Below the pieces are notes generated by a model. It had not been told where the DNA came from. It ran no database searches and worked only from the letters and a program-made list of their open reading frames with translations. This document shows, one piece after another, positions 5,945-61,200 of a DNA stretch of 64,000 nt; position 1 is the stretch's first letter; each line of letters starts with the position of its first letter. The stretch comes from Trypanosoma brucei (Eukaryota): NCBI GenBank assembly GCA_000002445.1, contig CH464492.1, positions 160,001 to 224,000 of the forward strand. The letters run 5' to 3'. The position numbers and the translations under genes were made by a program.

Positions 5945-6020
5945 ATGGCGATAGTAATAATGATAATAAGGTTAGGTTTGTGTTGTGAGTGTGTATATAC
6001 TAATATTATAATGAGACTTT
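5945..6020 (+). repeat. 70-bp repeat, single copy, upstream of VSG cassette 1
   Basis: gataataag...gtgttgtgagtgtgtatatactaatattataatgagac matches the trypanosome 70-bp repeat consensus ((TAA)n then GTGTTGTGAGTGTGTATATACGAATATTATAATAAGAG). Confidence 0.8.
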
Positions 6021-9986: not shown

Positions 9987-10017
<31 letters not shown>

Positions 10018-10080
10018 TAATAGAAGGTTCTTATGGGTGTGTATATACGAATATGATACTAAGGGTGATGAAGATAGAGT
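9960..10080 (+). repeat. 70-bp repeat with (AAAT)6(AAT)6 microsatellite
   Basis: aataaataaataaataaataaataataataataataataatagaaggttcttatgggtgtgtatatacgaatatgatactaag. Confidence 0.75.
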
Positions 10081-13424: not shown

Positions 13425-13510
13425 GCATTAATGATAATAATAATAATAATGATATAACAGTGTTGTAAGTGTGCATATACTAATATTATTATGAGGGTGA
13501 TGGTGGAGAA
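13425..13510 (+). repeat. 70-bp repeat
   Basis: taatgataataataataataatgatataacagtgttgtaagtgtgcatatactaatattattatgagg. Confidence 0.8.
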
Positions 13511-17014: not shown

Positions 17015-17095
17015 GTTTATAATAATAATAATAATGATAATGATAGGAGTGTGTTGTCAGTGTATATATACTAATATTATAATAAGAGCAGTGTT
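17015..17095 (+). repeat. 70-bp repeat
   Basis: ataataataataataatgataatgataggagtgtgttgtcagtgtatatatactaatattataataagagcag. Confidence 0.8.
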
Positions 17096-17572
17096 GAAGA
17101 ATAAATGGACTAGAATAGTAGAAGCACTTAAAGCGATATTTATGTGCAATGGCAATAAGGGGGGTGTGAGAGAGAGCACGAAGAATATTATTAAAGGAAA
17201 AAGAGAGAAATGTAGATAAAACATGGTTAGTTTTAATTAAAAAAGAAATGAATTGAAAATTCACGGGAGATGATGGAGTGGAAGGAGATGGAGAGATTTA
17301 GTGCTGTGTACATGGTTAATAAACTTTTTACGTTATGTGCTATGATAGTGCTCTACACAGGAACAAAACAAATCAACAGTATTCACAACCCCACAAAAAG
17401 GCGAAGGAGGAACCACAGATTCTCCATATTTTACTCAAAAAATAATTTGTACAACTAGAGAGATTATAACAACTGTGTTTTTTATTCTGCTTATGAATCC
17501 TGATGTCAAGCGCTTAAACAAGAAAGTAAGCGTTCATAGTGTGAATGCAGATTTTCTTTTAATAGAAAGACA

Positions 17573-22840: not shown

Positions 22841-22849
22841 CGAGAATGC

Positions 22850-23066: not shown

Positions 23067-23234
23067 CACTTGAAAGTTTTTAGTAATTGTAATTTAGATA
23101 AGTAAAATAACTATAGTAAGTAAAATATGCATGATGATGGTTAATAGGTGAAAGGTAGTAAAGTGGAAGAGTATGAAAAATGAGTGGTGTTCTCATTTGT
23201 TTGTTTTCTTATTTTATTTATGTTAACTAGGTTA

Positions 23235-23310
23235 TGATAGTCATAATAATGGTAGTGATATGGGTGTGTTGTGCGTCTGTATACTAGTATTATTATGGGA
23301 GCTGTGGTAA
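23235..23310 (+). repeat. 70-bp repeat
   Basis: tcataataatggtagtgatatgggtgtgttgtgcgtctgtatactagtattattatgggagc. Confidence 0.7.
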
Positions 23311-24695
23311 GGACAAAATGGGCGTAAAATAAATTTACTAAAAACAATGTAAAGGCTTTGATGGAAATAATATATTATATTGAGGAATATTAAAAAAAGA
23401 AAAAAGGAAGGTAGAGTATGCGCAGTTTTCATGCACAAAAATGGCGATGCGTGTCATGACAGAGGCAGAGATTTTTTGTGGAGGAGACGATGACGGAGAG
23501 GTAAAGAAAATCGAGCAGAAAAAATGGGGTTGCTGCGTTAGTGATATGATAGCTGAATTAAACTAAAAGAAGGGAAAAGAATATTGAAAGAAACGATAGA
23601 GGATTCTACAGCACAACATAGAATAAAATGACACATCAGCAAAAGATGATGTTTCTTGTTTTTCACAGAAATCAATAGCCAACACAGCGATGATAATGCT
23701 GATTACTGCAGTTTAGAATCGGATAGCCGATCATAATATTCTTCTGTAAAGTAAAAGAAATAAAAGAGGAAGGAGGAAGGTGTTGAGTAAGTTTGAGGCA
23801 ATTTCGAAGCCTTATTTTTATCAGATATATTAATAATATCAACCATTTGTGGCAGAACACATAATGTTATAGCAACGATATACTTTTAAGAATGGAAAAT
23901 AAGTGGCTTTCAATGAAGCTTAAGAGGAGAATAAAGACGTTAAAACAACTTAAAATAAAACATAAAAGAGCTGAGGAACTTTGTGTGATGTAACAAAGGT
24001 TTCAAATGAAGCTGCATCTCTCATCTGCTGGTTCAGTGGAAAAAAGTTGAACCCATTCAAAGAGCGAATAATTCACATAAAAATACAAACTAACGAAGAA
24101 ATAATGGGGAATGAACACAAATGCGAAAACAAATGAGTCCATTTAGAGACTCAACTGCCTAAAAAGTTAAAGTGACTGACAACAAACCAGGAAAACACTG
24201 CAAAATAATCAACGCCATGCATACGGAAAAACGTCACCGTTATACCGTTTTTAAAGATAAACCGACGCTACAGGAGCCAACCGGTATTAAAACCACACAC
24301 CGACCATACATAATAGATGCAATAGATATAGATATAGATCGATATGGGTTGAGCAGTAAAGCACGAACATTGTTGAAAAACAACATTTAGGTTCAAAATA
24401 TATATCTTGGTGACCGTAAGGTTCTACAGTGAAACCAATCGTTTTGTGAGTTGAAAATATGAGCAAAAAAGCCATTTATAGTGATTATGTGCATATAATA
24501 ATTTTTTAGCCACTTTTTTATTGACACCACAGCAAACGAAAAAACCAGCATTTCTTTTATGACAAATATTGATTGTGTTTTTGTCAGAGATTCGATTTTG
24601 TAACGTCTATAAGTGTTCATTTTCGCACAACATGGATAAATAGCGGAACGTTTCCGTCACAGCAAAGCTAGTCCCTAAGGCAGCGACCTTAAAAC

Positions 24696-26399: not shown

Positions 26400-26560
26400 T
26401 GTGATATAATAATAATAAATAATAGGGGACTGTTGTGAGTGTGCATATACGAATATTATAATAAGAGCAGTAATGATAGTAATAATGATAATAATAATGA
26501 CAGTAATAATAATAATAATGATGATGATAATAATAATGATAGGAGTGAGTGAGAGCAAAA
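26400..26560 (+). repeat. 70-bp repeats, about 2 copies
   Basis: ataataataaataataggggactgttgtgagtgtgcatatacgaatattataataagagcag, then a second degenerate unit with a long (TAA/TGA)n tract. Confidence 0.8.
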
Positions 26561-28469
26561 GGAATATTATTAAAGTGAAGGCAGACAGAGAGAAACAAAT
26601 AGAGATGGAATATGCACGATTTCATGATTATCAAGCAGGTGGGAACCCTAGTCAAGCCTCGTAGACTCGTAGCGACAGCAGGTAAAATAACAGAATTGAA
26701 GGTGAGTCAAAAGAAATGCACAGCAAACTACACAACGATACGAGAGGATGTTGTGCTCCACATTTTACTGAAAGTGGATAGGCGCCAGTTTACGGATAAT
26801 AGTTACTCCTTTTTAATTTGACTTTTTATCCTAATATACAGCTGTAAAGAAGTATCGCGCCCAGAATATGGGGTAAGGGATTTTGTAAGTATGAAGTAAT
26901 GTCGAATTATTTTCATAAGATATAGAAATATTGGAAAATATTTGTGCGAAAGAATATAACACTATGGGGAGGGCAATTTAAAAGCTGGGATTACTAATGA
27001 ATTTTCGCCGAAAATAAAGGAGAATAAAGACGAGGAAACCGCTTAAGTAGCGCTTACATAATGTAATGGCATAACTCTATGAAGTGGAGAGAATCAATGA
27101 TGATACTCCTCCAATTCGGTATTGGTATACTGGTCAGACATTAATAATTTTCAGGAGACGGTAAATACACATTAGAATACACACTGATGCGGCGTTAGTG
27201 CAGCGTGTCATGAAACTTTAAAACAAATGAGTTTACTAGTGACTGTAAATTACGATAAAAAGAAGACAAAGATCACTATTTAACTAGTATAAATGTGACA
27301 AGTACTAAAGAGCGTGTTTACTGGCAAAGCAACAGCATTATTTTGTCACTGCGTGTAAACAGCAACAAAACTTGAAGCGCTCCGAAAATATGCACCGGGA
27401 ATAAATGATAAGTGCTTTAGGTGTAGATATAGATCGATATAGAGTAGAATTAAAAGTAGAAACTAGTGGTTAAACAAAATTTACCTTTAAAATCTTTCAT
27501 AATTTCTATGAGTCTCCGTGGAGAAAAAACCTTGTCACAAGTTGAAAAAATGACAAAAAACAATGATTTCTAGTGATAAGTGACATATTCAAATGATTTT
27601 TAGACTGTAAGAATGGAAATCAAAATTGCGCACTTGAAAAAACAAACACGCAGTTTGGAATCATATTACACAAGAAGGTTATTAAGGGGACAATGGGGGA
27701 GAGACGGAGACCATGTGCAGGCCAGATAAAGATACTGCAGTATCAAAAGAAGTCAACAGATATACCGGCAAACAAGGAGGGCAAATACGGAGTGAAACAA
27801 GACAGTGCGTCAAATAGAGGCCATAGGGGCAGATGATACGTAGAGAATTGGTGCACTTTTTTTTATTTACACAGAAACGGATAAATGCAGTAGTGGAGAA
27901 GAGTGCACCAACTGTATTTTCTTCATATTATGGCTTCTCCACGTGTTAAGTGTTAAGGCAAACAAACGCCAATTGATCGAAGGAATGTGTGGTTTGAATT
28001 TTATCAGGGACGTACAGAGAATAGAGGAGAACTAATAGAATTTCGGACCGAAATAGACTGGAATTTCGGAAGTGTGCTTAGGTTGATCTTAGAAGTTAAA
28101 AGCAGAGCATCTGAGGAGGGGTAATGTTCTCACTAACTGCAACCGAAGCACCGCAGAAGGTGGCAATACACTCCGATCTAATAAAACACTCTCTAAACTA
28201 ACCATAATCAGCAGCAGCAGCAGAGAAATAGAAAAGGCGACGAGCGGTCTCGTATAAAAACAAGACAACCAGTGCAAAACATTACTAACAAAAACCAAAG
28301 TTAAAAAATGCAAATGCTTAGGTTTGCACATTCGACAAAGCGGCAACTACAATATAAGCAATATTTTATCATGGTGGCGATATCTCCAAGGCTTGCAATA
28401 CTGGCTTTCCGGATCCTGTACAGTCATCTGCAGCTATAAACTTGACACTAAAGGAAAAGTACCCTAGAA

Positions 28470-29975: not shown

Positions 29976-30227
29976 TGAAATTTCTAAAAGATTTTTAATA
30001 TATTTAATGAAAGTAAAGAATGTTTTCCTTGTTAAGAGAATTTGTTAAATTTGCTGAAATTTGATATATTTTAACATTTTTCGATAAAGAAGTGCAAATT
30101 GTTTAAAAATAAATCTAATATACGAAATTGTCTATGAAAGTGGACTATGAGTGTAATATGGTAGAGTGATATGGTTAAAAAGATAGTGCCATCATGAAAG
30201 GTTTCCTATTTTGTTTATTTTATGGAT

Positions 30228-30290
30228 TGTAATAAAGGCAGCAGGGTATTGTAGGTGTATATATACTGATATTATAATAAAAGAAACTCT
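30228..30290 (+). repeat. 70-bp repeat, degenerate
   Basis: gtaataaaggcagcagggtattgtaggtgtatatatactgatattataataaaag. Confidence 0.6.
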
Positions 30291-32591
30291 GGTAACCAAA
30301 TAAGTAGACAAATGAAATCACTTAAAACAATAGAAAGATGTGTAAAAAAGTGAATGGGAGTAAGAAAGAAGGATAAAGGGTATACCGAGTATTATTAAAG
30401 GAATGAACAAGAAGGATATGGAAGTTGAACAGTTTTAAACACGAACATGGCAATTGCTATATTTATGCCTGACAATATGATAAAGGAAACAATGATTTAA
30501 GGACAGAACACAGTGTACATGTTGAATGGGATCGCTGAGTCATCCACCAAAGCAGCGGAAACCCCGAAGAAGGGGAAACAATACGTAACAAAATAATAGA
30601 ATACGCGATTGCACAGTAGAGAAGAAAATAATACAAGAGGAGGAGGAGATAGTGCTTCTCATTATAATTACAAATTTATGGATGTGGCTGCAGAGATGAC
30701 GTTGTCATATGTGGTTTTTAATATGATAGCAAATCCTGATTTGCTGTTGTGAAGTAGAAGAAGCATAACTAGAAAAAAAAAGAGATCTGTAAGTGTAATG
30801 TAATATTGAAGTCTTTCACCCTCAAATATAGTAATAATAAACAACATTTAAAAAAATAATATCATTTTGTAGGGAAGAAAATATAAAAACTTGTACTATT
30901 ATGGGTTAAAGCAAAGAAACAGAATAATAAAAAGGTTGAAATTATGTAAAATATCACATAGATAAACCGGTAAAAATTTTATATAAAGTACAAAAAATTT
31001 AGTGATGGTACAGCCCCGACTTCATAGTTGTATACAAGCGTTTAATTGGTATGGCTTGAAAACTGTATCATTCACACAAGGATAAGACAAAATGAAACCT
31101 TGCTGACACATGTCAGACATGTTAAAAAAAGAATTCAGTTCACACCAAAATTACAAAGTATTAACCGAAAGTAGCCTAAAAACCAAGAGTATAAAGGAAA
31201 AATGAAAGAAAAGCCACAATCGCGAAAAACCTCTTCCTGGTTGTTCCGCCAGTATATAATGGATAATTTCTGTGAAACAGAAATGCTACTTGAGAATAAG
31301 ATTTAAATTTGTAAATATAGAAATATGTTTGTTGTTTTAAAGGCTAAAAGAAATCAATTAGGAGCTGAACGTAGGTACAATAATAAATATAGAAAGGTAT
31401 ATTTTCGATTTAAAAGTAAAAAAATGTCTAAAAATGAAGTTTAGCCTGTGGTGGTGACCATGGCTTTATATGGTGAAATCAACATTTTTAAAGTTCAACA
31501 TTTGAAAAACACACTTATTTAGAGAGATAATTTACACATTTTAATTAGTAAGCCATTTATCTTCATTAATATGAAATTAATTGATATACCGTTATTTTTA
31601 ATTTTGTTGGCAGTCAAAAATACATTTTTTCATAATTAAATCAATAAAATTCAAAACATCTATATTTAAAAATTAGTAAAAAATATGATAGTCCAAAATA
31701 ACTCAATAGATGCTTAAATTATTTCTATTTACAACTTTTGGAACCTCATTATCCAGTTTTGAATTACATCGTTAATTTCTCTAAAAACGAAATTTAGTGC
31801 ATGATGGAACCTCCTACTTTATGGTCTTCTATAGTGACTTCGCCACTTGAAGAGCCACAATGTGGTTTAAAATCGGCTTTTAACCGTTGCATTGCTGTTT
31901 GTGTGCAAAATCACAAATAATTGTAATGTTTTTTCTTTTAAAAATAAGCGTAGTGGTGGCTGGACATCTTCTTTAGATGCTGCAATAATGCAGTGGCATC
32001 TAACTAGCCGGATAAATAGTATCGTTGAGTAACTAATTTCACCAAATCCGTTGAAGTCATAGCTTTACGCCTGCGTATCTATGGTCAGAACCGAAATTTC
32101 TGAAGCGATTGTAGTCATTTTTTAGTACGAATAGCAGAAATATCCTTGTGAAAAGCTAACTAACATAACAACCTGGAGAAATAGACGGCTTTATGCGTGT
32201 ATACCTCAACTGAGGCAAGAATAGTGCATAAAAGCAGCGAAAATGTGTTTGTTATTTATATCTAAGCAAAATAACGTTGCGGAAGCAGTAAAAAATAAAA
32301 GAACTAATATAAAACACACTAAGAGCGAATGCAGGAAAAAAGAAGCCCCGACCATTAGCGTCTTTCTAACGTGTAGAAAGCAAACAGCAGAGAAGCCGAT
32401 AAGAAGGAACAGCACTTTGAGATAAAAGTTTAAACCTTCTGAAATAACTATAGGGTAGCTGCAACACAAACTAACACGGCTATTTTCGCTAACAAAGTAG
32501 CCTAAATCAATACACAACTTGGTGAATTTACAAAACTTCTCAAGAAGAATTCTTGTTTCACTTCTTCGGCAAAATATCAGAGGGTCATTGC

Positions 32592-34344: not shown

Positions 34345-34440
34345 TTGTTATTATAATTATAATAATATTAATGATAATCATAATGATAGGGGTGTGTTGT
34401 GACTGTATATATACGAATATTTTAGTATAAGTAGTAGTGA
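34345..34440 (+). repeat. 70-bp repeat
   Basis: ataataatattaatgataatcataatgataggggtgtgttgtgactgtatatatacgaatattttagtataag. Confidence 0.75.
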
Positions 34441-35902
34441 ATACTGAGTGCAAGTCAAAAAACACAAAATATGGCAAAAGTGCTATGTAAGGAACCTAGT
34501 GAGTGAGTAAAAAAGATAAGATAGATAATATTAAATGAGACACAGAAAGAAAAAGGGAAGAGGAGATAAGATATGCGCATTTTCTAACATAAAAATGATT
34601 ATGAGTATCATTATGCACAAGGAGGTCACAGAGGGATGTCTAATGAGAGGCAGAGTGCAGTGTGCACAATAAGTGGGGTAGGCACAACTAACACAGAGAT
34701 TTAGTATAAGTCAAAGTCTTTTTGACCACCTATTGTCGGTACACTCTTAATAACACCTTGAAAATTGCATTATTTCCACTTAGAATACTATTATAGATAC
34801 ACGGAAATGTATCGTGGAGAAAAAAGATGGTTAAAGACATACAGTTCGCCTAGGAGTGCATACTACAGAGGAAGTAACAATAGTAATGTAGCTCAAGCCA
34901 AGTAAGCAGCTGATGATTGCACCTAACCTTGGGGAAAGTTCTAAAATCAGTAGAAAATTAGGTAGACTAGCAATGAACTATAGAATGCACAATAAAAGAC
35001 AAGTAAATCGGCAAAAAGTTTTACCCATCAAAAGATAATGTGTAAAAACTTGGCCTTAACAACCTATACACTCTATTGAGTGAATTATATTATTAGTTAG
35101 GATCAGGAATTACTTTGTTTTCTTGATTTAAACATGTACTAATAGGAAAAGTGGGCTTGAATAAAAAGTTTAGTATAGAAGTGATTTTCCTTACAAGAGG
35201 GTGACCATATGTATCATGGCCTACAGATCCTGAAAAATGCGGCCCATTTCTAGTCTCTATTTGTCCCATACAGAAAACTGTGTTTCAAAGCTTACAAATA
35301 GGTATCAACACAACTCAATAGAGGTGTAGGAGCTGTCGCTGTCGGCCTTTAAAGTTTGAAACCATTTTCAAAGATTTATGAAATTTTTCCGTTACACAAG
35401 CGGTCGGCGCAGCTCAAGAGCAAGTCGGAAGAACAGAGAAGAATATGTTTAGCAAGAATACTACTAGGCAGTGCCTGCAGACAAATTTTCGGCCAACGGC
35501 GATCCGCAATCAGCTGAAAATGTAAGGTAAACACGTTTACTGCAAAGCTTTTCACAGCCGCAGGGTATATAGCAGCAGGGCTTGTGTATACGGAGAGACT
35601 GCTTAAAGGCTATTTATTGTCCCACCCACAATCCAAAAAAAGACAAAGAACGCAGCGCACCGATTTTCAAGCCGCGGGCCCTAAGCCATGCACAGCCATT
35701 CAAACTGCGCTAACGTCACGAAGAGACAAGAAAAACTTCCGATTTTTTTCGACGTGGAGCAACAATCTAAAATACCCCCGGTGTCAATGTATTGCATACC
35801 AGCAACAAGACGCAGCCCAGGACACAAAACATCAATCTCTATTGACAACACTCATGGATTTTTCAACCATGCCAATCACATAGAAAGACAAACAAGCAAG
35901 TG

Positions 35903-37614: not shown

Positions 37615-37725
37615 TTATAGCAGGAAGGATAGTAATAGTAAGGATAACAGTAATATCACTGATGATGGTAACAGTGTGTTGTGAGTGTGTATACACTAAC
37701 AGTATAATAAGAGTGGTTGTCAACC
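37615..37725 (+). repeat. 70-bp repeat
   Basis: gtaatatcactgatgatggtaacagtgtgttgtgagtgtgtatacactaacagtataataagagtgg. Confidence 0.75.
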
Positions 37726-39874
37726 TAAAATAGTAGATGAAATAAAAGTACTCACAACAATTGCAAGGTGCAGTAGAAGTGATACAGAGAATAAGAGAGA
37801 ACGAGGAATATTATTAAAGATAACACTGAAAGATAAATGGAAAGAGTGGGAATGTGCGCAATATCAAGCAAGAGAATTCACTGAATGCAGAATCATCCGC
37901 AAGGAGGTAACTGATTGGATAATGAGGAAACAAAGAGTGCAGTGCATATGTCAAATAGATTTGTTACAGATAACACAAAGAAGCAGTGGAATTGTAGCGC
38001 ACCAAAAGGCATCATTTCAGCATGCTGTTAAGAACACTTTAAAGAATGCTACTTTCTAGTAAAATTACTATTATGGATACGCAGGAATATGTAGTGGCGA
38101 ATTTAGTCGACAAAGAGTGTCATATATGTCGAAAATTGCTCTTCTTACACAAATTAGTATATCGGACTAAGGTGAGAAAAAAAGCAACTTATGATCGCAC
38201 GGACTCTTATATAAAACGGCCAAATCAGCGCAAAATTGAGAAAGAGTATCAAGAGGAACACGCAAAAAAGGCAGTAATAAAAATGCTACTGTAACGCAAA
38301 GTGGTTTAGAACAACTGTGCGTTAACAATAATTACAGTCAGGAAAATTAGAAAAGTTATTGAATAGAAATAAACTCTTCCTTTTTTGTGATCAAGCACGT
38401 TGAAGTCTAAAATTTTGCTTGTATATCAGACTTAGAGAATTGGATCACGGTTTATCTAGGAGAAAAAACGTGAATGCAACGTTGTGACACTAAACAAGTA
38501 ACTGCATTCATTTCCCTTACGCATCTGTCCTATTTACAGCCGCCTGTATCTTTGAATTGAGGGCCAGAAAGAAATAACACAGAAGTAAAATATAACTCTC
38601 TTATGCGGTTAAATTGTATTTCAAAGCAACTCGCCGGATTAAAAGAGTTTCAACTGCGAAATCTGAATCAACACCGGGGAAAAAACTGCTGCGGTTAAGC
38701 GAGAAAGACGTACGCTCAGCAATGTTCGAGGAAGCTTTAAAAAAGAGGTTAGGAGTTGGTATAGCTCAAGACCTCAGCACAAAACAGCAATTGATAACGA
38801 TGCTGGCGTGTAATCTAGTCATCGTCATAGAGAGGTTGGTGAAACCCACTGCCAAGATAGTAAGTGAACTTGAATGTGGCGACATGCGCCCATAACTTGT
38901 TGGTGAGAAGTCGCTGCAGCTTAGCTGTTAACAGCGTGGACAAGAAATGGGGTTTTCAGGGGCATTACTGCCACTTAGAAAGAAAAAGTTCACCACAAAG
39001 AAGAGGAAAACAAGTAAAGAAAGAGCATTTATAAATTCTAACAGTCTTTTACTGTTTTCAAAAAAGTATAAAAAGTAGAAGAAACACGCCGTAGAAAACT
39101 AAAGCACAAGATTGCGATCAGACAGACATATAATTTTAATAAACTGCAACAAGTTATAGTTTGCTTATAAGTCGACACAAAAGAGAAGGAAAACCTAAGA
39201 CACATTCAAGGATGTACAAAAAGTGCACTGCAGAAAGTCTCTGCAACGCAGCGGCAACACAAACATATAATATTCGTGTGGAAAACAGCCACCAAAAAAC
39301 AATTGAATAGTAATACAAACAACGCGTTCCGTAATCGACCCTCCTCAAAGCAGTAACCAAGTTGTATTTTATATACCTTACATTACCAAACGCACTCAAC
39401 GCCAACGAGCAGTAACCAAAATGTGGTGTAGCTGCCGAAATGACTCAGTGCACACGGGAAATAGAAAATGACCTTGTGAATAAATTAACAACGAAAACCA
39501 GAAACAAACTAGCTAAACTGCTCCTGAGGATACACACATAAATAAATCCGCGTAAAAACGCGCGAAACTCATACCTCTAATAGCGATCATCGCTCACTGC
39601 GTGTAGGAACACAAACAGAGCCGGGCAGGACTACCTAAACTCAACGATACAACACGCACTGTCCAGAGTAACCACTCTAAAAAATCCGAAGGTCAACACA
39701 GTGTGACGAAGACAGAAACGGTAGAACGGAGCAACTCATGCTAACCTTACATCAACAACCTAAAATATTAAGCTTCAAAAACAAACATAACAGTACCTGA
39801 CCAAAGTTCTCAAATAATAGTACCCGGTAACCCCACAAATAAACGTTACAACAAAGGCAAGAAAATTCAAGGAC

Positions 39875-41447: not shown

Positions 41448-41694
41448 TATTATAAGGACTTTCTTTCAATTTTATGAAATTTAAGAGAGTTGAGAGAATT
41501 TGCTAAGATTTGAGATATTTTAACAATTTTTGATAAGAATATGCAAATTTAAGAATTTAACACCCTAAAATGTTTGAAAATGTCATGATCGTGGCCTATA
41601 GGCAAAATATTGTATGGTGTTATATTATTAAAAATGAGTTTTATTATAATTTGGTTTATTTGTTTCTTGTTTATTTGTAGATATCAAGAAAGGT

Positions 41695-41790
41695 TATAAT
41701 AGTAATAGTAATGGCAACAATAAAAATAATATGGGAGTGTTGTGAGTGTGTATATACGAATATTTTAGTATAAGTAGTAGGGAACAGCGC
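41695..41790 (+). repeat. 70-bp repeat
   Basis: taatagtaatagtaatggcaacaataaaaataatatgggagtgttgtgagtgtgtatatacgaatattttagtataag. Confidence 0.8.
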
Positions 41791-42739
41791 ATTGTCGACC
41801 AATATAGAAGCCATGTAAGCTAGTGGAAAGGGTGCAACAAGGGTAAGTGAGTGAGTGAAGCAGTGACTGACTGAGAGGAAATGAGCCATATTGTCAAATG
41901 ACATTAAAAAAGACAGAAAGAGAAGATGGAATATGCATGGATTCAAGCATTAAAGTGACTAGAGGCATTATCATGCACGCAAAGATTATTGAGGGAGACT
42001 ATGTGGAAAAGAAAAGGTCTACTGTACAAGAAAATTGGCGTTTCTACGTTATCAGCGGTGATAGAAGCGGAGATAGAAAACTGGAAAACACAGCACGTAA
42101 CAAAAGTAAATGATAGAAAAGAAACAGATTATATAGTCTAATTAACCCAAAAATGGAAAGATGCCACTTCAATGATGGACGTATAAACCACAGGGGAAGT
42201 AGTTGTTGAGTCTGCGCTGTTAGGATTGCGTATTGAAAACGGACGGTTGTGCTATTTATCACAGGCAGATGGTAAGAGCTTTAGTATATATAAAATAAAC
42301 AGTGCAACTAGCTATCCCTACTCCCATATCAACATATGAAGGTCAAATATGAAGAATGCAAAGAACATCAGAATACACGAGTAAGTAGAAGTGACTGTGG
42401 TTGAAGGTGATTTCTACTAAAACCCCTCTATGACTAATCAAATAAAAGATTTAGACACTATGCACACCCACTCTTCAGCAACTACATTATTAAAATATAA
42501 AGGAAATACTCATACATGCAAGCACTATGGTGCGACAAATTATTTATGTTGTTAATATTTTCAAGTCCATCATATAATTTTATCAAATTTAAAGACAGGC
42601 TAGGTCATGAAACTTTGCATATTGAGAACTTTAATATTACCATTGATGTTACATTTATTGTACTTCACCTAAATATCTTTACAAGATGATATTGTAATAA
42701 AAAACAAATATGATAGAGAATAACACTAAGAAACAAAGA

Positions 42740-43887: not shown

Positions 43888-45474
43888 ATGATTCGACCGA
43901 TCCAAGCCGTTTACGTAGCATCGATAGTGATTGCAGCTGCAGTCTGTCAAAGATCCGCGGAAGCGACTACTGAACCAGGCCCAAACGGCGGTGCATTTTC
44001 ATTACTCTGCACTATCATCAACATGTTAAATGCAGGAACACAGCCGCCTGACACCATCCAAGCAATCGAGCATCTCGCAGCTGAGATCGGTGCCTTATAC
44101 CTTTCTCAAGCGCCGGCGAAATTCTGGGATTCAATAGAGGAGGATAAAACGTGGCAAACCCTAGCAGACACCGAAAAGCCCTCAGCTGACGACGACAAGG
44201 CGACATGGGAAAAGTACTATAACTTCTGGGCAGCCTCAAAGAAGCAGATCGCAAAGAAAAAAGAACAATACGAAACTTGGGGCAAAAAGAATCTTGCAGG
44301 TGACTACCTCTCGGAACTAAAAAAATACGCGGAAATGGCATACAACGCGTATACAAACGCAGAGTTGACAAAGTACGCCACGCTCGAGACCACGAGAGAA
44401 ACGTAAGCCGACTTGGCCTTGTACGGGGCCGCAGGCAAAGACAAGGAAAATACCGACGATGCAGCAGGAACGCGAGAGAACAGCTGTGGCCTCGGAGACG
44501 CAGGGACGAGCAACCAGGCCGGAAAAACGATAAGACGGGACATGGCTTGCCTCTGTGCGAAGGGGACAGGGACAGAAGTCAACAACGTTTGCTGCCGCTA
44601 CTGCGACTACAGCGGCGAGTCGACATGGCGCACAGCCCAGCATGCCAAAGCCAAATTCGAGCACCTCATTACGAAATGCCCAGCTTATGCGCCTACACTG
44701 GAGGTAACTAGCTCTAACCTAAACAACATCTTAGCCAAATTGCATGTCACCATAGGCGGCATTCAAGGAACAACAGCGAAGAAGCCCTATGTCCTCGGGC
44801 ATTTAGACGGGACCGGGAACAACGGTTGCGACGGCAAATCTGAAGGAAACGGCGGTGTATGCGTAATCTACAAAGAGACAGCTGGCGGCACAACCAAACA
44901 TGCCGACATTGCGTGGGAGCAGCCAGCAAAACTAGCGTAGGCCGCGGCCGACAGCATGGAGGCCAACAAGCAGAGATTACTCGAGATGAAGGCAGAACTG
45001 ACACTACTAAATGTCACCGCCGGAACAATCAGCCTCTGGGGCAGTCGGCAGCTCAGTGTTACTAGCACAAACAAAGTTGAGCCGGCCGCCCAATGCAATA
45101 ATCACAAAACAAACAAGACCTGCACAGCAGCTAAGTGCAAATTGGAAGAAAAAGATGGAAAGGGTGAGTGCAAACCTAAAGATGGAGCAGAGCAGAAAAA
45201 AGCAGCAGGAACAGGAGGAGATGGAGCTTCAGGAACAGCAGCTTCAACTGAGTGTGCAAAACACGGGACCAAAACTGAGTGCGATGCTGACAAAAAAGAT
45301 GACAAGCAAAATTGTGCATTTAGGAAGGGAAAAGATAATGAAGATGACAAGGTTACAGAAAAGCGCCGCTCTTCTAGTTTTCTTATCAAGAAGAAAATTG
45401 CTATGATTGCAGCTGCTTTTTGTGAGTGTGGTATTACTTTAACGATTTTTGCTCATTATTATGAAATATTTTAA
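43888..45474 (+). pseudogene. VSG with two in-frame stops (TAA 44404-44406, TAG 44938-44940); same subfamily as the VSG at 8084
   Basis: ATG 43888; ORFs 43888-44406, 44413-44940 and 44956-45474 are all in one frame; N-terminus EPGPNGGAFSLLCTIINML matches EPGDNGGYYASTCAILNML of VSG 8084; C-terminus CAFRKGKDNEDDKVTEKRRSSSFLIKKKIAMIAAAF plus an extended tail. Confidence 0.85.
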
Positions 45475-45744
45475 TTTTTTCTATTTTTTAAGAATTTGCT
45501 GAATTTTATAAAATTTAATATATTTAACCACTTTTGGATAAAAATGTTCAGATTGAATAAATTTTTGATAATTCAAAATTTTTTTAAAAGCTTTTTATGA
45601 TACTGGCATATGGGTGTAAAGTAATATTGTGATAGGGCATAAAAAATGAGTGCTACTATAATTTGTTTTTTTCTATATTTTCTGGATATTAGAAACAATT
45701 TAGGTTTACAATCAAAAAAATGAAGACGGTTAAAGAGGTTATTT

Positions 45745-45900
45745 CGATATTAATAATGATAATGATATGAGAGTGTTGCGAATGTGTATATACGAATATT
45801 ATAATAAGAGCAGTAATAGTAATAATAATAATAATGATGATGATAATAATAATAGAAGAGTGTTGTGAGTGTGTATATACGAATATTATATTAATAGTAG
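45745..45900 (+). repeat. 70-bp repeats, 2 copies
   Basis: gagtgttgcgaatgtgtatatacgaatattataataagagcag...(TAA/TGA)n...agagtgttgtgagtgtgtatatacgaatattatattaatag. Confidence 0.85.
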
Positions 45901-47601
45901 CAGTGAATACTGAATAGGCTGGCAAAGTATATGTATTTCAAACAGTGTAAATGCCGAAATGGGATTAAGTAAGTTGGTATGAAAGATAGTAAAAAAAATA
46001 TTATTAAAGGAAACGTGGATAGAATGAAGAGAAAGAATGAATGAGACCGAATACGCGCAGTTTCAAACACAAACATGACGTGAGGCACCAACTCATGCTA
46101 GGAGATTGTGAGGAGGCCGATTATTAGGAGAAATAGTGCAGTGTACAGGGAAATTGTAGGTTCTACAAGACAATACAAAGGAGAAATACTAGATGAAGTT
46201 GAATATGTGCACAGTTGTCAATATTTTCTCAAGACATACTTGACAAATGCATTAATTTATCACAAAGAACTATTATTGAAACAAACATATCAGCTGCAGA
46301 GAGAACAACTGAAGAACAGTATGTAACTTGTTTAAAAGCTTTTCGAACAGCAAATTTTCCTACTCCTGAGCGGCGATTCCATCAAAAAAGTTATCTAATG
46401 ATTTCGCAATACATTGATACAACAATAAAAGAAAGCTATAAATTCAGAAAATATATCAGCAAATTAGATAAAGGGCAGAAAAGCAAAAATACAGTCACAA
46501 ATTAGAACTTTATTACATTACAAGGTTGTGTAGAGAGAGAATAACTATTAGTATCTCATACATTCAAAAAAAGTGGAAATTTATTAGATCGAAACAAAAA
46601 TTTTGTGGCCTTCTATATGAAAGCATGTAAACGTTTGAAAATGACCTTAAATGATAGATTTAGTATGTTAAAAACTGGGTGAAACCTAACACTATGATTA
46701 TAATTACATTAAATTAGAGATTATAAGCCAGAAGGTAACGTTCATTTCACAACAATATTTCATTTACTTTACGGCTTTATGCATCATTAAGTCTAGAACT
46801 GAGCGACACAAAAGAGGGATACAAGTAAAAAGCACGATTAGATTTTATGTGAAGACAACCAGGCCCATAAAAAAGGTTAAAACTGATCTCCAAAATGGAA
46901 AATCAACTCAAACAGGGCACAAAGCCGGTCGAACATTCAATCAACTAGCAGTTTTTCAGACGAATTCAGTGACACGCCCACCAGCGGGCGTGTCAGACCT
47001 GGGGCGCGAGATTATAAACGCGGCAAATTTAGCACGTAAGTTACCCACCTTTACTCAAAAAGTGGCGGAAAATGCACAGCTAGCATGGGAACTGGTTAAT
47101 ATAAGGGTGTTTCTGGCAGGCTTTCGACTGAGAGAAATAACAGAATTCTAGACGCCGACAGGCAATGAATATGTAATTTTCCCTTGGGCCTGCGGCCGTC
47201 ACCCACAGAAGAAGTGCGTAAAATATTTTTATGGCTGTAGTTTTAACAAGTTATGAAGCACATGTCTTTCGCTTTGGCTTCCGCCGTGATTTCTTACAGT
47301 AAAGACCTGCTTTGAAAAAGTGTAACGAATCCATATGGAGTCACTCAAGCAAACAAAGAAGCGGAAATAGGAACCTAAGCAAACGCAACTGGGAAAGAGT
47401 CTGGTAGCGCTACCTACACTGTGTGAAGTCTGTAAATATGTCATTTTTCACAACGAATAAAGCAAAGCTTCAATAAAACCCCTGTCGGCAAACAAGCGCT
47501 CCCTAAACCACTAGAAGCCACCCTTCTCCACCAGCAAAATTTTCTATTGTGAGCAGTGGCAAGCAACCAACCACTGACCAAGTATTTAAAGATCACTGGT
47601 A

Positions 47602-49014
47602 ATGGCCAAAGTAGCGCAGTGGCACTTACTACTCGCCTTCATCCTCACTGTGGCCAAAGCAGACGATAAAAAACCAGCCGATGTGGCAACGGACGCGTGC
47701 AAACTAGGTCGAGTTCTACAGGCCATAGCGACGCAACTGGAAGGTAAACTGCAACCTGCGGCAGCAACTATATCAGGCAAGCGGCCGCTAATAGCCCGGC
47801 TAATGGATGCCACCGGGCAGGGCTCAGCGGAAATACACCTGCTGGCGGCTCCAATCCTACTGAAGCTAACAACGGCTGTCACGACCGCCGAAAGCAAATT
47901 GAAAGCGCTTACAGCAAAAACAACAGCACTAGCAACGAAGTTGAGGGTGGAGGCAGTCAAAGCCCCCGCAATAACGGAAGCCGTTTCCGTTCAGGTTAAA
48001 ACCACGGACACAGGCGACACCAACGGCACCACGCTGAACCAGGTCGACAATATTCAGTTTACAGAGATAAAGACAGGGACGACGGCCTGCCCGGGCACAC
48101 TCACACAGGCAGCAGAACACGCCGCCGACTGGATTCAGCCGGAAAACCTTTAAACCATGGTTTTTTACAGGCTAAAGATCAACGAACAAACAGGTTTAGC
48201 GAGGCTGCCAACCCTTGGCAAAGGGGCCGGTGGAGCTTGTACGAACGGCGCAGCAAGCGTAGCGAACGGTGGGATAACAGGCACAAACCTTTGCATCGCG
48301 GGGGGCCCAGTGCTTGTGGCCGATAAGCGAACTCACGCGGCGGCCCACAACAGTAACTACATAGCACAGCCAGTGACCGATATGGAGAGAGAAGCGGATC
48401 CAGATAAAAGCGAGCAGGCGCTTGCACAGGAGCTGCTGGACGTCGCCCAGGAATGGCACACGGCGAACTTTAACTTTGATGCACTAGAGATAAGCAGCTA
48501 CACTACCGATGACACCTTTAAAGCGGCAGTAGCAGCAGCCGTAGGCAACCTCAAAGAGCCGTACGACTCGGCAAAACATGGGGAGATCATTTCGAGATTA
48601 ATATCCAACAAATATGGCGACAGCAAGGAGACATTTAAAAATAAATTCTGGGAGCCGCTCAGCAAACTGCCAGTACCCAAAGTAGCACTAGGTACTGATA
48701 GCGATGGCACCGTCGCGCAAATATCCGACACAGCAACAACAGCGAAGGTGTTGCTACACGCAGCAAAGCAGAGGCAAAGTAAAACAGAAAAAAGAGCAGC
48801 CAATGCAGCAGGAAAAAACAGAATAAGAGAAAGACGGGATAAAGCAACCGCAGCTGAGTGCAAAGCCACTGAGGAGGGTAAATGTGACGAGGAGAAATGC
48901 ACTTGGGATAAGGACAAGAAGGAGTTCAAAGTTTAAAAAGGAGCAGAAGTTATTTGTTATGTGATGAATACGCCTCTTTTTCTTGCATTTTTGCTTCTAA
49001 AAATAACCTTTTAA
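47602..49014 (+). pseudogene. VSG (B-type-like N-domain) with two in-frame TAA stops (48154-48156; 48934-48936)
   Basis: ATG 47602, signal MAKVAQWHLLLAFILTVAKA; ORF 48157-48936 is in the same frame; after the second TAA the frame continues KGAEVICYVMNTPLFLAFLLLKITF* (GPI-type tail); the cysteine-rich C-domain AAECKATEEGKCDEEKCTWDKDKK is shorter and less canonical than the others. Confidence 0.65.
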
Positions 49015-49289: not shown

Positions 49290-49380
49290 TGGTAATAGTG
49301 ATAATAATTATTATTATTATGATACTAATAATAGAGTGTGTTGTGAGTGTGTATATACTAACATTATGATGAGAGTGGTG
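49290..49380 (+). repeat. 70-bp repeat
   Basis: gataataattattattattatgatactaataatagagtgtgttgtgagtgtgtatatactaacattatgatgagag. Confidence 0.8.
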
Positions 49381-50576
49381 GTAAATGGTAAACGCACTGA
49401 CAAAATAAAAGCACTCTAAATATTAAGGGTGAAATTGGAGAAATTGAGTAAAAGAAAGTTTAAAAGAGGGCGAGGAATAGTGTTATGGGAAAGACATGTG
49501 ACTGAGAATGTTAATAAGATTTAATACACGCACTTTTAAACACATACATGACGGCAGGTTTCACTATATGAAAGGATATGATGGAAGGGACAATCAAGAA
49601 GAGACAGAATGCAGTGTACAGGGCAAATGGGGTCGCTACGTATCCGCAAAAGTAGTAACATGATAAGAAAGGAAAGGAAAATCGATGGTGGATTACCAGG
49701 ATATATGGCACAGCAAAGCGCATATAAACATAGTACAGGAAGAAATTGGTGGCTACATTTAACATAAAATAGATAGATACTACCGCTAAAATTGACGAAA
49801 ATGTGTTTTTTCAATCTGGTAGCGGATCCTAATATCCAGCTGTGAAGAATGAGGAACTGAAGAAGAAAAAAGTTTGACTAAAACAAGAAGGGAAACCACC
49901 ACCAAAAAAAAATAAATTACTCCGGCGACACTACAGCAGATGATGTTTACGAAGAGTAAAAGGTTGTAATGGTACTCTTCCAATTCCGTATCGGTATACG
50001 AAGCAGATTCTAAAACCATCGAAGAAACAAGTAATTAACATAAAAGGCGTCGCGGCCGCACATCTAGCGAAGCGCATAAGCTAAATAATACATGAAAAGG
50101 AAGTTGTGTTTGGCGCCCCCAAATTAATGTATAAAACGGCGTCAAAGCAAAATGATATCGGATGCTTGCAAACAAAAAAGGCCCAATCGTACTCGCGAGA
50201 AGCAGTAACTTTAGTTTTTTTATTGTATAAGTGGCAATAAGATATTCTGTCACTCGAAATAGAGCAAATTAACGGCTGTAAAGGTTTATAAGTTAGATAT
50301 AGAATGGTTTGGATGATTTCTAGAGGTAAGTTTCCTGTATCATAGTAGATAGAATCAAAAAATAGAAGATAAAGAAAAATAAATTAAAATCGATAAGAAA
50401 AAAGAAATACTAAGTTTACAGAGAGTAAAGCAGCCTCAAATACAGGGATAAACAGAAAAAAGCGGAAAATGCATTGTCACCGAGTTACAAACAGCAGACC
50501 TGTTTAAACGGCTACCCCAGCGCTGCCGCATATTGACTCTTTTCTTTCACCTTTTCGAACTCTAATAGCTATCTAG

Positions 50577-52053: not shown

Positions 52054-52177
52054 GCAATGCAAGGATATTTTTCAAAAATTATGAAACTTGGCATGCTTAG
52101 AGAATTTACTAAAATTTGATATATTTTAAAGTCTTTTCATGGTAATGTAAAATTTTGAGAATTTTGAAAAAAAATAA

Positions 52178-57853: not shown

Positions 57854-57874
57854 ATTTAACATTTTCGTCAAAAG

Positions 57875-59353: not shown

Positions 59354-61084
59354 CTGCTGACTTGCTACCTTTTTTGTTATCTTGCAGCCTCAGTTTCTGT
59401 CTGTCTCGTGCAGGTTCAGCAGGTTGCTGTTGTGTTTCGCCAACGTTAGTGTGTTTTTGTTTTTCTGCTGCTTGTTGCGGCCGCGACGCAGCTGATCTTC
59501 CTTGTGTTGTGTGCAATTTTTTTCTGTTGTCGTATGATTGAAGTGTGATGGGATAAACCTAGGTTTATGGCTCCTTGGAGTTTGAGGTGCACTGTGAATT
59601 GACAGCTTTACAGTTGGCTGTTTTACAGTGTCGTCTGCACCAATGTGTTTTTCGGCATCACGTTGGGCTGACATAGGTGCAATATTTGAAGTTTGGATAC
59701 GTTGTTTCTTGTTGGTGGTGGTGGTTCACACCTACATACAGGCTTCCTTTTGTTTATAAATTTTTTTATATGAGATGTCGTTTCTGATTCTTCTATTTTT
59801 TGTTGAATGTACTAAATTGGCCATTTTGTCTCTGCATTACTTGCATCACAAAGATTTTGCTGCCATAACTCCGTCATGGGCATATCTGTAAGAATAAGCT
59901 CCGTGCTCAACTTTTTAGCGCCATTTTTCAGTGATCTGTAACATATAGTGCTGATAGTTACATCTCTGGTGTCTGCAGCGGCCTTTATTAAACTTTCTTA
60001 GTTACTACATCCGTTTATCTTTTTGCTTCATTACCCTCAAACATTATTTTTGTCTTTTTGTTTCCTTTCTTCCACTTATGGCTTATCTAGACCAGAGCTG
60101 ATGCTGAAACATGTTTCTTATATCTCTTTTTATACGCTTTTATTCCAAGTGAAATACAACCGCTTCTAGCAGACCTATTTATTCGACTATTATTGCTTTT
60201 CTTCTGTGGTCACAATAAAGAAAGCTGTGAAATAAAAAGCTTACAAGAAACAACTATTCTTTACTAGTTTCGGACTACTAGGAAGGATTTACGTGCATTA
60301 TTTCAGTTAGTCTGCTTCTAATCTACTGAATTAGCCATTTAACCACATTTTTACTAATTCTTATGACTTCACTTAAAGAAAAAACCAACGATTTCTTCCG
60401 TACAGTACCTTTGTGTATTTGCATTAGTTTAAGATCCACAAACATTCATCATTTCTACAGCGTCTCGTGATGCAATAACAGCTTTATTTCTATTTTTAAC
60501 TTTCTCTGTTGACATATTCTGCAGCTTGGTGTTATTCTTCCTAATTTTCTGCTGCCTTAAAAACTTTTCGCGAGGTTGGTGTCAACAATAATCTGTTCTC
60601 TTGCGCAGTTCTTCGACACTTTTGTTATTTCTGTTCCGAGACAAACTTTTTGATGATTGTGATGGTTTTTAGCATCTGAGTTGTATGCAGCATATCCCTT
60701 TATTTCTACCATAGTATCTTATCTGAAATTAATGTATTTTTCAAAGAGTTCTTAGAAGAATATTAGCCATGCCGTACTCAGTCGTTTTCCTCTTGCAGTT
60801 CATTTTTGTGTAGTTGTAGCGACTCTATTTTCTCTATATACAGGACCATGCCTTTTTCTAATTGACCATAATTTCTTCACCATGTGCACAAAAATGTCTA
60901 TAGCCATGTTTGTGTATGACACTGATCATAGTTCATCTTATTTTCCTCCCATATCATCCTTCCAATTCCTTTAATAATTTTCCTTTTTTATTTCATTCAC
61001 TAACTTACTTACCCCTATTGCACTCTTACCATTGTTTCAAGTGCCTATATATATTTTTTGAATCCGTAACTGTTGTGATTACAA

Positions 61085-61200
61085 TATTAGTACATACATA
61101 CTCACAACACTATTCTATACTAATAATAATTATTATTATTAGTATTGTTGTTACTATTCATATTTTAATCATCACTGATATTTATACAATAATAAATAAT
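61085..61200 (-). repeat. 70-bp repeat, minus-strand orientation
   Basis: The reverse complement of 61090-61150 reads ctaataataataattattattagtatagaatagtgttgtgagtatgtatgtactaatat. Confidence 0.75.

What the first reader, a model, noticed from the sequence alone, without database searches (positions are those of the whole stretch)
46000..46165. Conserved ~150-200 bp element immediately downstream of every 70-bp repeat block (core GTGCAGTGTACAGGG)
About 100-350 bp 3' of each 70-bp repeat there is a recurring block, AATATTATTAAAGG ... GAATATGCGCAGTTTCAAACACAAACATGACG ... CACAAGGAG(A/G)TGATGGAGGG ... AGTGCAGTGTACAGGGCAAAT. Instances are at ~6100-6260, 10190-10330, 13590-13740, 17130-17320, 23385-23520, 26565-26700, 30350-30520, 34545-34700, 37800-37960, 41900-42070, 46000-46165 and 49430-49640. 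It is present even where the downstream VSG families differ, so it behaves as part of the repeat-boundary module rather than the family-specific co-transposed region. A matching conserved block (AAAAATGAGTG ... TTTGTTTTATTTT) precedes each 70-bp repeat. Its function is unclear; it could be a recombination boundary or an RNA-processing signal.
Basis: seen in the sequence. Interest (0 to 1): 0.5.

Follow-up and report, generated by a model that had tools for sequence, protein, structure and literature searches.

The report
Conserved flank beside VSG 70-bp repeats
Every 70-bp recombination repeat in this Trypanosoma brucei surface-antigen (VSG) gene array is followed directly by the same heavily diverged ~270-bp non-coding stretch, which looks like an inherited part of the repeat's junction module and not a separate RNA or protein signal.

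Summary
The window is a T. b. brucei TREU927 subtelomeric VSG array. Leave-one-out nhmmer profiles recover all 12 claimed copies (E 1e-6 to 3e-25). They also find a 13th copy on the minus strand (60805-61065) and a 5'-truncated copy (27612-27747). A reversed decoy gave no hits. The window-built profile finds the element after all 7 70-bp repeat loci in two unrelated T. equiperdum contigs.

The element starts at base +1 after the repeat, not at +100. It ends sharply at about +260 to +280, at the CAGTGTACA block. Copies are about 53-55% identical with no family structure. Beyond the boundary the flanks split into at least two types that cannot be aligned with each other.

It has no ORF, no Rfam hit, no conserved or unusually stable fold, no polypyrimidine tract, and no match to the 70-bp repeat profile. 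Within flank families it is no better conserved than the adjacent family-specific flank.

Best reading: it is the universal first segment of the VSG upstream flank. It forms one junction module with the VSG 3' flank and the 70-bp repeat, is inherited by descent, and lies upstream of where VSG-plus-flank exchanges occurred. Any role as imperfect recombination homology is inferred. Interest is modest, and I found no description in the papers I could read.

The parts
45906..46172 (+). Focal copy of the element (the finding's 46000-46165 is its 3' two-thirds); pan-family homology ends about 46165-46185
   Evidence: nhmmer profile positions 2-257, E 1e-47; leave-one-out E 2.6e-17; boundary
45741..45815 (+). 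70-bp repeat, first of two at this locus
   Evidence: 70-bp profile E 4.6e-17
45827..45904 (+). 70-bp repeat, second copy, directly abutting the element
   Evidence: 70-bp profile E 1.2e-16
45373..45740 (+). Conserved upstream flank of the module (end of the preceding VSG, its 3' flank, and the T-rich block at ~45662)
   Evidence: Column conservation 0.5-0.75; self-BLAST coverage ~10; motif hits
47602..48936 (+). VSG served by this flank (A-type; two adjacent ORFs, probably a pseudogene), 1.7 kb after the repeat
   Evidence: ORFs; Pfam Trypan_glycop 9e-8
6025..6246 (+). Element copy (lacks the AATATTATTAAAGG block)
   Evidence: leave-one-out E 3.7e-19; alignment
5949..6021 (+). 70-bp repeat
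10081..10321 (+). Element copy
   Evidence: leave-one-out E 4e-8
10001..10070 (+). 70-bp repeat
13506..13738 (+). Element copy
   Evidence: leave-one-out E 3.9e-21
13428..13504 (+). 70-bp repeat
17097..17346 (+). Element copy (this unit's VSG is replaced by an ingi-like retroelement)
   Evidence: leave-one-out E 5.8e-11
17019..17094 (+). 70-bp repeat
23313..23542 (+). Element copy
   Evidence: leave-one-out E 2.5e-11
23233..23307 (+). 70-bp repeat
26544..26625 (+). Element copy, only the middle part recognisable (profile 68-151); the rest is diverged but collinear with unit 23.3k
   Evidence: leave-one-out E 1.4e-6; collinear HSP 23028-24506 vs 26187-27601
26406..26547 (+). 70-bp repeat with an extended TAA/TGA tract
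27612..27747 (+). 5'-truncated second element copy (profile 124-260) with no 70-bp repeat, at the junction of two tandem upstream flanks
30293..30550 (+). Element copy
   Evidence: leave-one-out E 6.3e-15
30226..30289 (+). 70-bp repeat
34438..34700 (+). Element copy
   Evidence: leave-one-out E 1.1e-20
34361..34438 (+). 70-bp repeat
37733..37983 (+). Element copy
   Evidence: leave-one-out E 1.4e-11
37644..37720 (+). 70-bp repeat
41783..42062 (+). Element copy
   Evidence: leave-one-out E 7.7e-18
41704..41780 (+). 70-bp repeat
49387..49654 (+). Element copy
   Evidence: leave-one-out E 3.4e-25
49307..49381 (+). 70-bp repeat
60805..61065 (-).
   Evidence: Found by profiles built without it, E ~1e-13
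61067..61143 (-). 70-bp repeat of the minus-strand unit

Best explanation
The element is the universal first ~270 bp of the VSG upstream flank, that is, the start of the 'co-transposed region'. It abuts the 70-bp repeat. Together with the preceding VSG's 3' flank and the repeat itself it forms a junction module of roughly 1 kb that every array unit shares.

It acts, if at all, as DNA. It is non-coding and unstructured. It is most simply explained as inheritance from the ancestral array unit: the module has stayed in place while the VSG and the more distal flank were exchanged downstream of it. That would leave a sharp end of pan-family homology at about +270.

Its most likely role is passive. 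It would extend, with very imperfect homology, the short single 70-bp repeat on the VSG side of the recombination boundary.

Shown here: family membership, adjacency to the repeat, extent, the sharp boundary, absence of coding or RNA features, and presence in a second (sub)species. Inferred: the history by descent and exchange, and any recombination role.
For: The element follows 13/13 70-bp loci in the window and 7/7 in two unrelated T. equiperdum contigs, always in the same orientation. In the window each copy starts within ~13 nt after the repeat. One of the seven equiperdum repeats is interrupted by an assembly gap.

Conservation is continuous from the preceding VSG's 3' end, through the repeat, to about +270.

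Between-type identity equals within-type identity up to about +260 and then drops to baseline. BLAST HSPs between units of different flank families end within the first ~300 bp after the repeat, for example 5890-6237, 16986-17320, 41697-42047 and 45813-46156. The same two distal flank types occur in T. equiperdum.

Within flank families the element (0..+300: 0.49-0.58 in families A and B; 0.51-0.68 for the single family C pair) is no better conserved than the family-specific flank at +300..+700 (0.48-0.56), so no special constraint needs to be invoked.

There is no phylogenetic signal within the element (E1 vs E2 r=-0.14), only a weak link from its 3' half to the next segment (r=0.39), while the two distal segments correlate at r=0.59.

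In pair u06/u41, identity is about 0.5-0.7 near the element but 0.78-0.85 at +900..+1200, which indicates exchange downstream of the element.

The same element precedes both A-type and B-type VSGs.

Recent work reports error-tolerant, RAD51-dependent recombination using short imperfect homology in T. brucei (PMC13233330).
Against: Identity of about 53-55%, with a median longest exact in-register match of 8 nt (range 5-17; the 70-bp repeat gives 11, range 5-30), is poor substrate for classical homologous recombination.

With 19 copies there is some among-site rate heterogeneity: 31 columns reach >=85% majority against 13.7 expected, and the variance is 0.032 against 0.019. This could mean weak constraint centred on AGTnCAGTGTACA, or it could be an alignment effect.

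Equal within-family and between-family divergence does not fit a simple neutral tree. It needs either a burst of duplication, or exchange, or a constraint plateau, and these data cannot separate the three.

No expression-site, minichromosomal or metacyclic-site copy could be examined.
Confidence: 0.55

Rival explanations
1. It is a constrained cis-acting DNA site, for example a binding or cleavage site that marks the inner edge of the 70-bp region, or a chromatin or replication factor site. The part-palindromic AGTnCAGTGTACA block at its 3' end would be the functional core.
For: There is an excess of well-conserved columns with 19 copies: 31 against 13.7 expected at >=85%. The only run of conserved non-A columns is T-G-T in CAGTGTACA. 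That block sits exactly at the sharp 3' boundary. The element is present in 20/20 loci across two (sub)species. Deleting the co-transposed region together with the 5' end of VSG2 in an active expression site is reported to lead to rapid switching (Davies et al. 1997, as cited in PMC8612549).
Against: Almost no column is invariant: 1 column reaches >=95% against 0.5 expected. With 12 copies there is no excess of near-invariant columns (24 against 22.6). The 9-mer has <=2 mismatches in only about 13/20 copies (read from the alignment). The element is no better conserved than neighbouring family-specific flank.
Confidence: 0.15
2. It is an RNA-level feature: either a processing signal, or the body of a trans-spliced, polyadenylated non-coding transcript that starts at the T-rich tract and AG just upstream of the 70-bp repeat.
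For: A T-rich block lies within 300 nt upstream of the repeat at 10/12 loci, and polypyrimidine tracts are seen at about -90 to -190 in several units. Unstable transcripts from the co-transposed region of the active site are reported (PMC5698767).
Against: The element itself is 64-76% purine with only 5-17% C and carries no polypyrimidine tract. Downstream polypyrimidine tracts are inconsistently placed, at +343 to +674 or absent. RNAalifold predicts 0 pairs on either strand. Mean folding z-score is 0.07. There is no Rfam hit. Array copies lie in regions generally considered silent (background knowledge).
Confidence: 0.08
3. It is a run of ancient, decayed 70-bp repeats.
For: By eye, GTGAGTGAGTGA...ACGAGGAATATTATTAAAGG resembles the repeat's GTGAGTGTGTATATACGAATATTATAATAAGAG, and GATGATGG...AGTGCAGTGTACA loosely resembles (TGA)n...GAGTGTGTATATAC.
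Against: The 70-bp profile finds all 14 true repeats (E 1e-10 to 1e-18) but nothing in any element copy at E<=50. A core-only profile run with filters off gives no consistent hit, and its scores are no better than for reversed or locally shuffled copies.
Confidence: 0.07
4. It is a chance or compositional artefact of aligning A-rich sequence.
For: The region is A-rich (0.42 A), and most of the best-conserved columns are A.
Against: Leave-one-out E-values reach 3e-25. There are independent hits in T. equiperdum at E 5e-17 to 6e-31, plus one at 8e-10. The decoy gave none. The blocks of normal complexity are conserved in register.
Confidence: 0.01

Closest known systems
T. brucei 70-bp (76-bp) repeat, the 5' boundary of VSG gene conversion (Hovel-Miner 2016, PMC4858185)
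   Same: Same loci, same orientation and physically contiguous. Both lie upstream of essentially every VSG. Both are non-coding and belong to the recombination boundary.
   Different: The sequence is different: there is no hit to the 70-bp profile. It is not tandemly repeated and has no (TAA)n tract. It is far less conserved (0.55 against 0.69 mean identity; core columns 0.86). No experimental role is known.
[quoted passage not shown] 1997, as cited in PMC8612549 and PMC5698767)
   Same: By position the element is the first ~270 bp of this region.
   Different: The one paper read here that characterises this region's sequence calls the VSG221 copy a unique sequence (PMC5698767). This segment is instead shared by all units and all flank families.
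[quoted passage not shown]
   Same: It is a non-coding block of about 300 bp directly after a repeat array, upstream of VSGs, whose phylogeny is decoupled from the VSG by recombination.
   Different: CNE1 is 87% identical across copies and telomeric, and was proposed to be a promoter. The present element is about 55% identical and sits in silent internal arrays. Homology between the two was not tested (no T. congolense DNA was available).
Borrelia flanking sequences, one on each side of the silent antigen gene, that order antigen switching (as mentioned in PMC3467770; the names UHS/DHS are from my own background knowledge)
   Same: It is a conserved sequence at the 5' border of every silent antigen cassette. 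Barry et al. speculate that conserved VSG flanks might act in a similar way.
   Different: There is no evidence here that crossovers occur in the element or that its similarity predicts activation. Its presence in expression sites was not tested.

Membership tests
T. brucei 70-bp repeat | Match to the repeat consensus (GT-rich core GAGTGTTGTGAGTGTGTATATACGAATATTATAATAAGAG) | tested here: not met
   A profile of the window's 14 repeats gives no hit in any element copy at E<=50. The core-only profile with filters off scores no better than on reversed or shuffled copies.
T. brucei 70-bp repeat | (TAA)n/(TRR)n tract and tandem arrangement | tested here: not met
   Tandem Repeats Finder reports arrays only within the 70-bp loci and none in the element. 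The element is a single copy per locus.
VSG co-transposed region | Lies between the last 70-bp repeat and the VSG start codon | tested here: met
   In the window the element starts within ~13 nt after the repeat. VSG ATGs lie 1.46-2.10 kb after the repeat.
VSG co-transposed region | Is copied with the VSG into the expression site during duplicative switching | not testable with these tools
   No expression-site or switcher sequence was available. Collection scans found no trypanosome DNA.
VSG co-transposed region | Sequence unique to each VSG (stated for the VSG221 copy in the one paper read that characterises it) | tested here: not met
   Shared by 13 window units and 7 T. equiperdum units across flank types.
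Structured non-coding RNA | Rfam family match, or conserved or unusually stable secondary structure | tested here: not met
   No Rfam hit at gathering thresholds. RNAalifold predicts 0 pairs on both strands. Mean z-score 0.07 over 20 copies.
Protein-coding gene or pseudogene | A reading frame shared by the copies | tested here: not met
   Stops occur in every frame in nearly all copies and no frame is consistently open. Indels are frequent in the alignment.
Trypanosome trans-splicing / polyadenylation signal | Polypyrimidine tract followed by AG on the transcribed strand | tested here: not met
   No polypyrimidine tract falls within 0..+300 in any unit. The + strand is 64-76% purine. Actual processing sites cannot be tested without RNA data.
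Retroposon (ingi/RIME-type) | Similarity to the retroelement copies present in the window | tested here: not met
   The element profile has no hit in the ingi-like region 17.5-22.9 kb or anywhere else.
Upstream-homology sequence of an antigen cassette (Borrelia-type) | Present at the 5' border of every silent cassette | tested here: met
   20/20 loci.
Upstream-homology sequence of an antigen cassette (Borrelia-type) | Also present at the expression site, used as the crossover point, and similarity predicts the switch rate | not testable with these tools
   This needs expression-site sequences and switch-junction data.

The most novel reading that the evidence does not exclude
The element is a functional 'address' at the inner edge of the 70-bp boundary. 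In one version, its conserved 3' block (AGTnCAGTGTACA) is recognised by, or is prone to breakage for, the machinery that sets the 5' limit of VSG conversion. In the other, the copy-specific similarity between a donor's repeat-plus-element and the copy resident in the active expression site tunes how readily each array VSG is activated. That would be a Borrelia-like determinant of the VSG expression hierarchy.
Probability: 0.1. Interest if true: 0.7.

Novelty: new member of a known kind. Interest (0 to 1): 0.35.

Why it matters
The 70-bp repeat is the textbook 5' boundary of VSG switching, yet array copies carry only one ~75-bp repeat. A universal ~270-bp neighbour would more than triple the recognisable shared sequence on the VSG side.

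It also gives a profile that marks the inner edge of every VSG cassette. That profile is useful for annotating arrays, for spotting rearranged units (as at 26.5-27.7 kb), and for asking where conversion junctions fall.

If its copy-to-copy variation influenced donor choice, it would bear on the unsolved question of what orders the activation of array VSGs.

If it is only an inherited relic, which is the likelier case, it still shows that array units share one ancestral junction module into which A-type and B-type VSGs and at least two distal flank types were exchanged.

Tried and rejected
1. Exact-motif definition. The 15-mer and 26-mer cores are too variable to define the element, so I replaced them with profiles.

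2. Decayed 70-bp repeats. Rejected at HMM sensitivity.

3. Coding remnant. No shared frame.

4. Structured RNA. No Rfam hit, no consensus pairs, no excess folding stability.

5. Splice or poly(A) signal. No polypyrimidine tract, and the downstream tracts are placed inconsistently.

6. Long homopurine (H-DNA-type) tract. The longest purine runs (median 14 nt) are what a 68% purine composition gives by itself (median 12 nt).

7. Strong position-specific constraint. No excess of near-invariant columns with 12 copies, and only moderate heterogeneity with 19.

8. Recent homogenisation by gene conversion. No pair exceeds 62% identity in the element.

9. External DNA. Three look-ups with window VSGs and one with the identical TREU927 protein returned nothing. 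Scans of the metagenome, prokaryote-genome and viral collections for the 70-bp core found nothing. Only two T. equiperdum contigs could be fetched.

10. Literature. Searches and reads found no description of this element. The papers most likely to mention it could not be read: Aline et al. 1985 and Marcello & Barry 2007 were requested and are not held, and Campbell et al. 1984 was not requested.

11. Pfam on ORFs in 1-5.9 kb and 52-58 kb found nothing.

Full report
WHAT THE WINDOW IS

The window is a Trypanosoma brucei subtelomeric VSG array.
- ORFs on the + strand carry Pfam VSG_B, Trypan_glycop (A-type) and Trypan_glycop_C domains.
- One window VSG (35903-37429) is 100% identical to a T. b. 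brucei TREU927 'VSG, atypical, putative'.
- Another has 76-82% identical relatives in the EATRO1125 and Lister 427 VSG catalogues.
- A profile of the 70-bp repeat finds 14 repeats at 13 loci. Twelve loci are on the + strand and one is on the minus strand at 61067-61143. Only the locus at 45.7 kb has two repeats.
- VSG start codons lie 1.46-2.10 kb after the repeats.

Yes.
- Exact motifs are poor descriptors. GTGCAGTGTACAGGG is found within 3 mismatches at only 4 sites, against 1.0 expected. The 26-mer from the focal copy is unique.
- A MAFFT alignment of the 12 listed regions nevertheless shows blocks in register.
- Leaving each copy out of the nhmmer profile in turn still recovers it (E 1.4e-6 to 3.4e-25).
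- The profile has no other hit in the 64 kb on either strand, and none at E<=10 in the reversed window used as a decoy.
The best blocks are of ordinary complexity: GGAATATGCGCAGTTTCAAACACAAACATGAC, ATCATTATGCACAAGGAGATGATGGAGG and AGTGCAGTGTACAGG.AAATGG.GT.

INDEPENDENT CONFIRMATION

Trypanosome DNA is absent from the scannable collections. Four exact-protein look-ups failed. Two T. equiperdum OVI contigs could be fetched through VSG homologues (L001, 21.5 kb; L002, 10.5 kb). Their VSGs are unrelated to the window's (28% identity), and megablast finds no orthologous unit.

The window-built profiles find the element directly after every 70-bp locus there:
- L001: 630-796, 3697-3930, 7567-7780, 11916-12173, 15509-15720 and 19487-19691.
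- L002: 1465-1666.
- E-values run from 8e-10 to 6e-31.
- The one locus with no 70-bp hit has its repeat interrupted by an assembly gap of Ns.

That makes 20 of 20 repeat loci, in two (sub)species.

ANATOMY

Conservation does not begin 100 bp downstream as described. It runs without a break from the preceding VSG's 3' end, through the T-rich block and the repeat, into the element from base +1. The focal copy is therefore 45906-46172.

The 3' end is sharp:
- In 40-column windows over 18 typed copies, identity between the two distal flank types equals identity within types (0.50-0.62) up to about +260.
- Beyond that, between-type identity drops to 0.33-0.44, which is the level of unrelated sequence, while within-type identity stays at 0.45-0.60.
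- BLAST HSPs between units of different flank families end in the same zone, within the first ~300 bp after the repeat.

Beyond the boundary the flanks fall into type A (units at 10.1, 34.4, 37.7, 45.9 and 61.0 kb) and type B/C (the rest). Both types are also present in T. equiperdum.

Flank type is not tied to VSG domain type. Type A flanks precede both B-type VSGs (11592, 35903) and A-type VSGs (48157, 58053-59021 minus strand).

WHAT IT IS NOT

- Not coding. Stops occur in all frames in nearly all copies and no frame is shared.
- Not a known or structured RNA. There is no Rfam hit. RNAalifold gives 0 pairs and 0 kcal/mol on both strands. The mean folding z-score over 20 copies is 0.07.
- Not a splice signal. 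The + strand is 64-76% purine with 5-17% C over 0..+300 and carries no polypyrimidine tract. The T-rich tract lies upstream of the repeat, where it plausibly serves polyadenylation of the preceding VSG. That last point is inferred from the known coupling of trans-splicing and polyadenylation in trypanosomes.
- Not a long homopurine tract beyond what the composition gives.
- Not recognisably derived from the 70-bp repeat, despite a resemblance by eye between AATATTATTAAAGG and the repeat's AATATTATAATAAGAG.
- Not related to the ingi-like element in the window.

HOW IT EVOLVES

- Copies are very diverged and equidistant. Mean pairwise identity is 0.55 (range 0.48-0.62) and no pair exceeds 0.62, so there is no recent homogenisation.
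- Within flank families the element is no better conserved than the family-specific flank that follows it. Values for 0..+300 are 0.49-0.58 in families A and B (0.51-0.68 for the single family C pair), against 0.48-0.56 for +300..+700.
- With 12 copies, the distribution of column conservation fits a uniform-rate star model for the conserved tail: 24 columns reach >=11/12 against 22.6 expected.
- With 19 copies there is moderate heterogeneity: 31 columns reach >=85% against 13.7 expected, but only 1 column reaches >=95% against 0.5 expected. The excess may reflect weak constraint or alignment effects.
- Distance matrices show no shared signal between the two halves of the element (r=-0.14). There is a weak link from the 3' half to the next segment (r=0.39, p=0.002) and a strong family signal between the distal segments (r=0.59).
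- In the closest pair (units at 6.0 and 41.8 kb), identity is about 0.5-0.7 near the element but 0.78-0.85 at +900..+1200. The VSG-proximal flank therefore shares a more recent ancestor than the repeat-proximal flank.

MOST LIKELY EXPLANATION

The element is the universal first segment of the VSG upstream flank. It is one arm of a junction module of roughly 1 kb (VSG 3' flank, T-rich block, 70-bp repeat, element) that all array units inherited. VSGs of both domain types, and at least two kinds of distal flank, were exchanged downstream of it, which left a common homology end at about +270.

This part is inference from the nested pattern of homology. The data fit it better than they fit a discrete selected motif.

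Whether the element does anything is open. The most economical role is passive: imperfect homology that lengthens the single ~75-bp repeat of array copies on the VSG side.
- Against this, the median longest exact in-register match between copies is only 8 nt, compared with 11 nt for the repeat.
- In its favour, recent work reports error-tolerant, RAD51-dependent recombination on short imperfect homology in T. brucei (PMC13233330).

COMPARISON WITH WHAT IS KNOWN

- By position the element belongs to the co-transposed region. The one paper I read that characterises that region's sequence calls the VSG221 copy a unique sequence that yields unstable transcripts (PMC5698767). Deleting the region together with the 5' end of VSG2 is reported to lead to rapid switching (as cited in PMC8612549).
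- Analyses of the 70-bp repeat (PMC4858185), of expression sites (PMC2567434) and of switching hierarchy (PMC12137147) do not mention a conserved segment after the repeat.
[quoted passage not shown] CNE1 is 87% conserved and telomeric (PMC6152948).
- Barry et al. speculated that conserved VSG flanks might order activation in the way the flanking sequences of silent Borrelia antigen genes do (PMC3467770).
- The older papers most likely to have noted the element could not be read: Aline et al. 1985 and Marcello & Barry 2007 are not held. 'Not described' is therefore provisional.

VERDICT

This is a real, general, sharply bounded but weakly conserved non-coding flank of the 70-bp repeat. It is ordinary in kind, being a conserved border of an antigen cassette. 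It appears unannotated and has no demonstrated function. Interest is modest (0.35). The more exciting reading, a functional address or determinant of the activation hierarchy, is not excluded but has no positive support here.

Noticed in passing
window 17019-22885: This unit has the 70-bp repeat, the element and about 170 bp of type-B flank. A degenerate ingi-like retroelement then follows on the minus strand (ORFs with zf-C2H2, RVT_1 and Exo_endo_phos hits), running up to a VSG 3' end at ~22885. The unit's VSG is missing.
   Followed up: partly
window 26403-28470: Two upstream flanks lie in tandem before one VSG. The first is a full type-B flank (26548-27601), collinear with unit 23.3k. It is joined at 27602 to the 3' half of a second element copy (27612-27747) plus its flank, with no VSG or 70-bp repeat in between. 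This looks like a deletion that fused two cassettes, with one breakpoint inside the element.
   Followed up: partly
window 5891-7859 vs 41639-43666: These two units share 2 kb of flank at 67% identity overall, rising to 78-85% about 0.9-1.2 kb after the repeat, while the element is only ~0.5-0.7 identical. This is a mosaic history within the upstream flank.
   Followed up: partly
window 51742-58225: The arrays converge here. A + strand VSG 3' end (51742-52153) faces a minus-strand one (58225-57854). The 53.8-57.7 kb stretch between them is 78-80% identical to T. equiperdum L002 5253-9102, and 55892-56256 resembles part of the ingi-like element. ORFs in the stretch have no Pfam hit.
   Followed up: no
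window 45741-45904: This is the only locus in the window with two 70-bp repeats. All the other loci carry a single repeat.
   Followed up: yes
window, 20-250 bp upstream of each 70-bp repeat (e.g. 45662-45690): A T-rich polypyrimidine block lies within 300 nt upstream of the repeat at 10 of 12 loci. It is a plausible signal for polyadenylation of the preceding VSG mRNA (inference only).
   Followed up: partly
window 1-5800: This stretch has no internal repeats, no long ORFs and no Pfam hits. The first array unit (70-bp repeat at 5949) has only ~150 bp of the usual upstream flank, so the array may start here.
   Followed up: no
L001 (T. equiperdum CZPT02001055.1) and L002: The same two distal flank types (A and B, where B carries an extra ~60-70 nt right after the element) occur in T. 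equiperdum. The dichotomy therefore predates the separation of these two lineages.
   Followed up: partly
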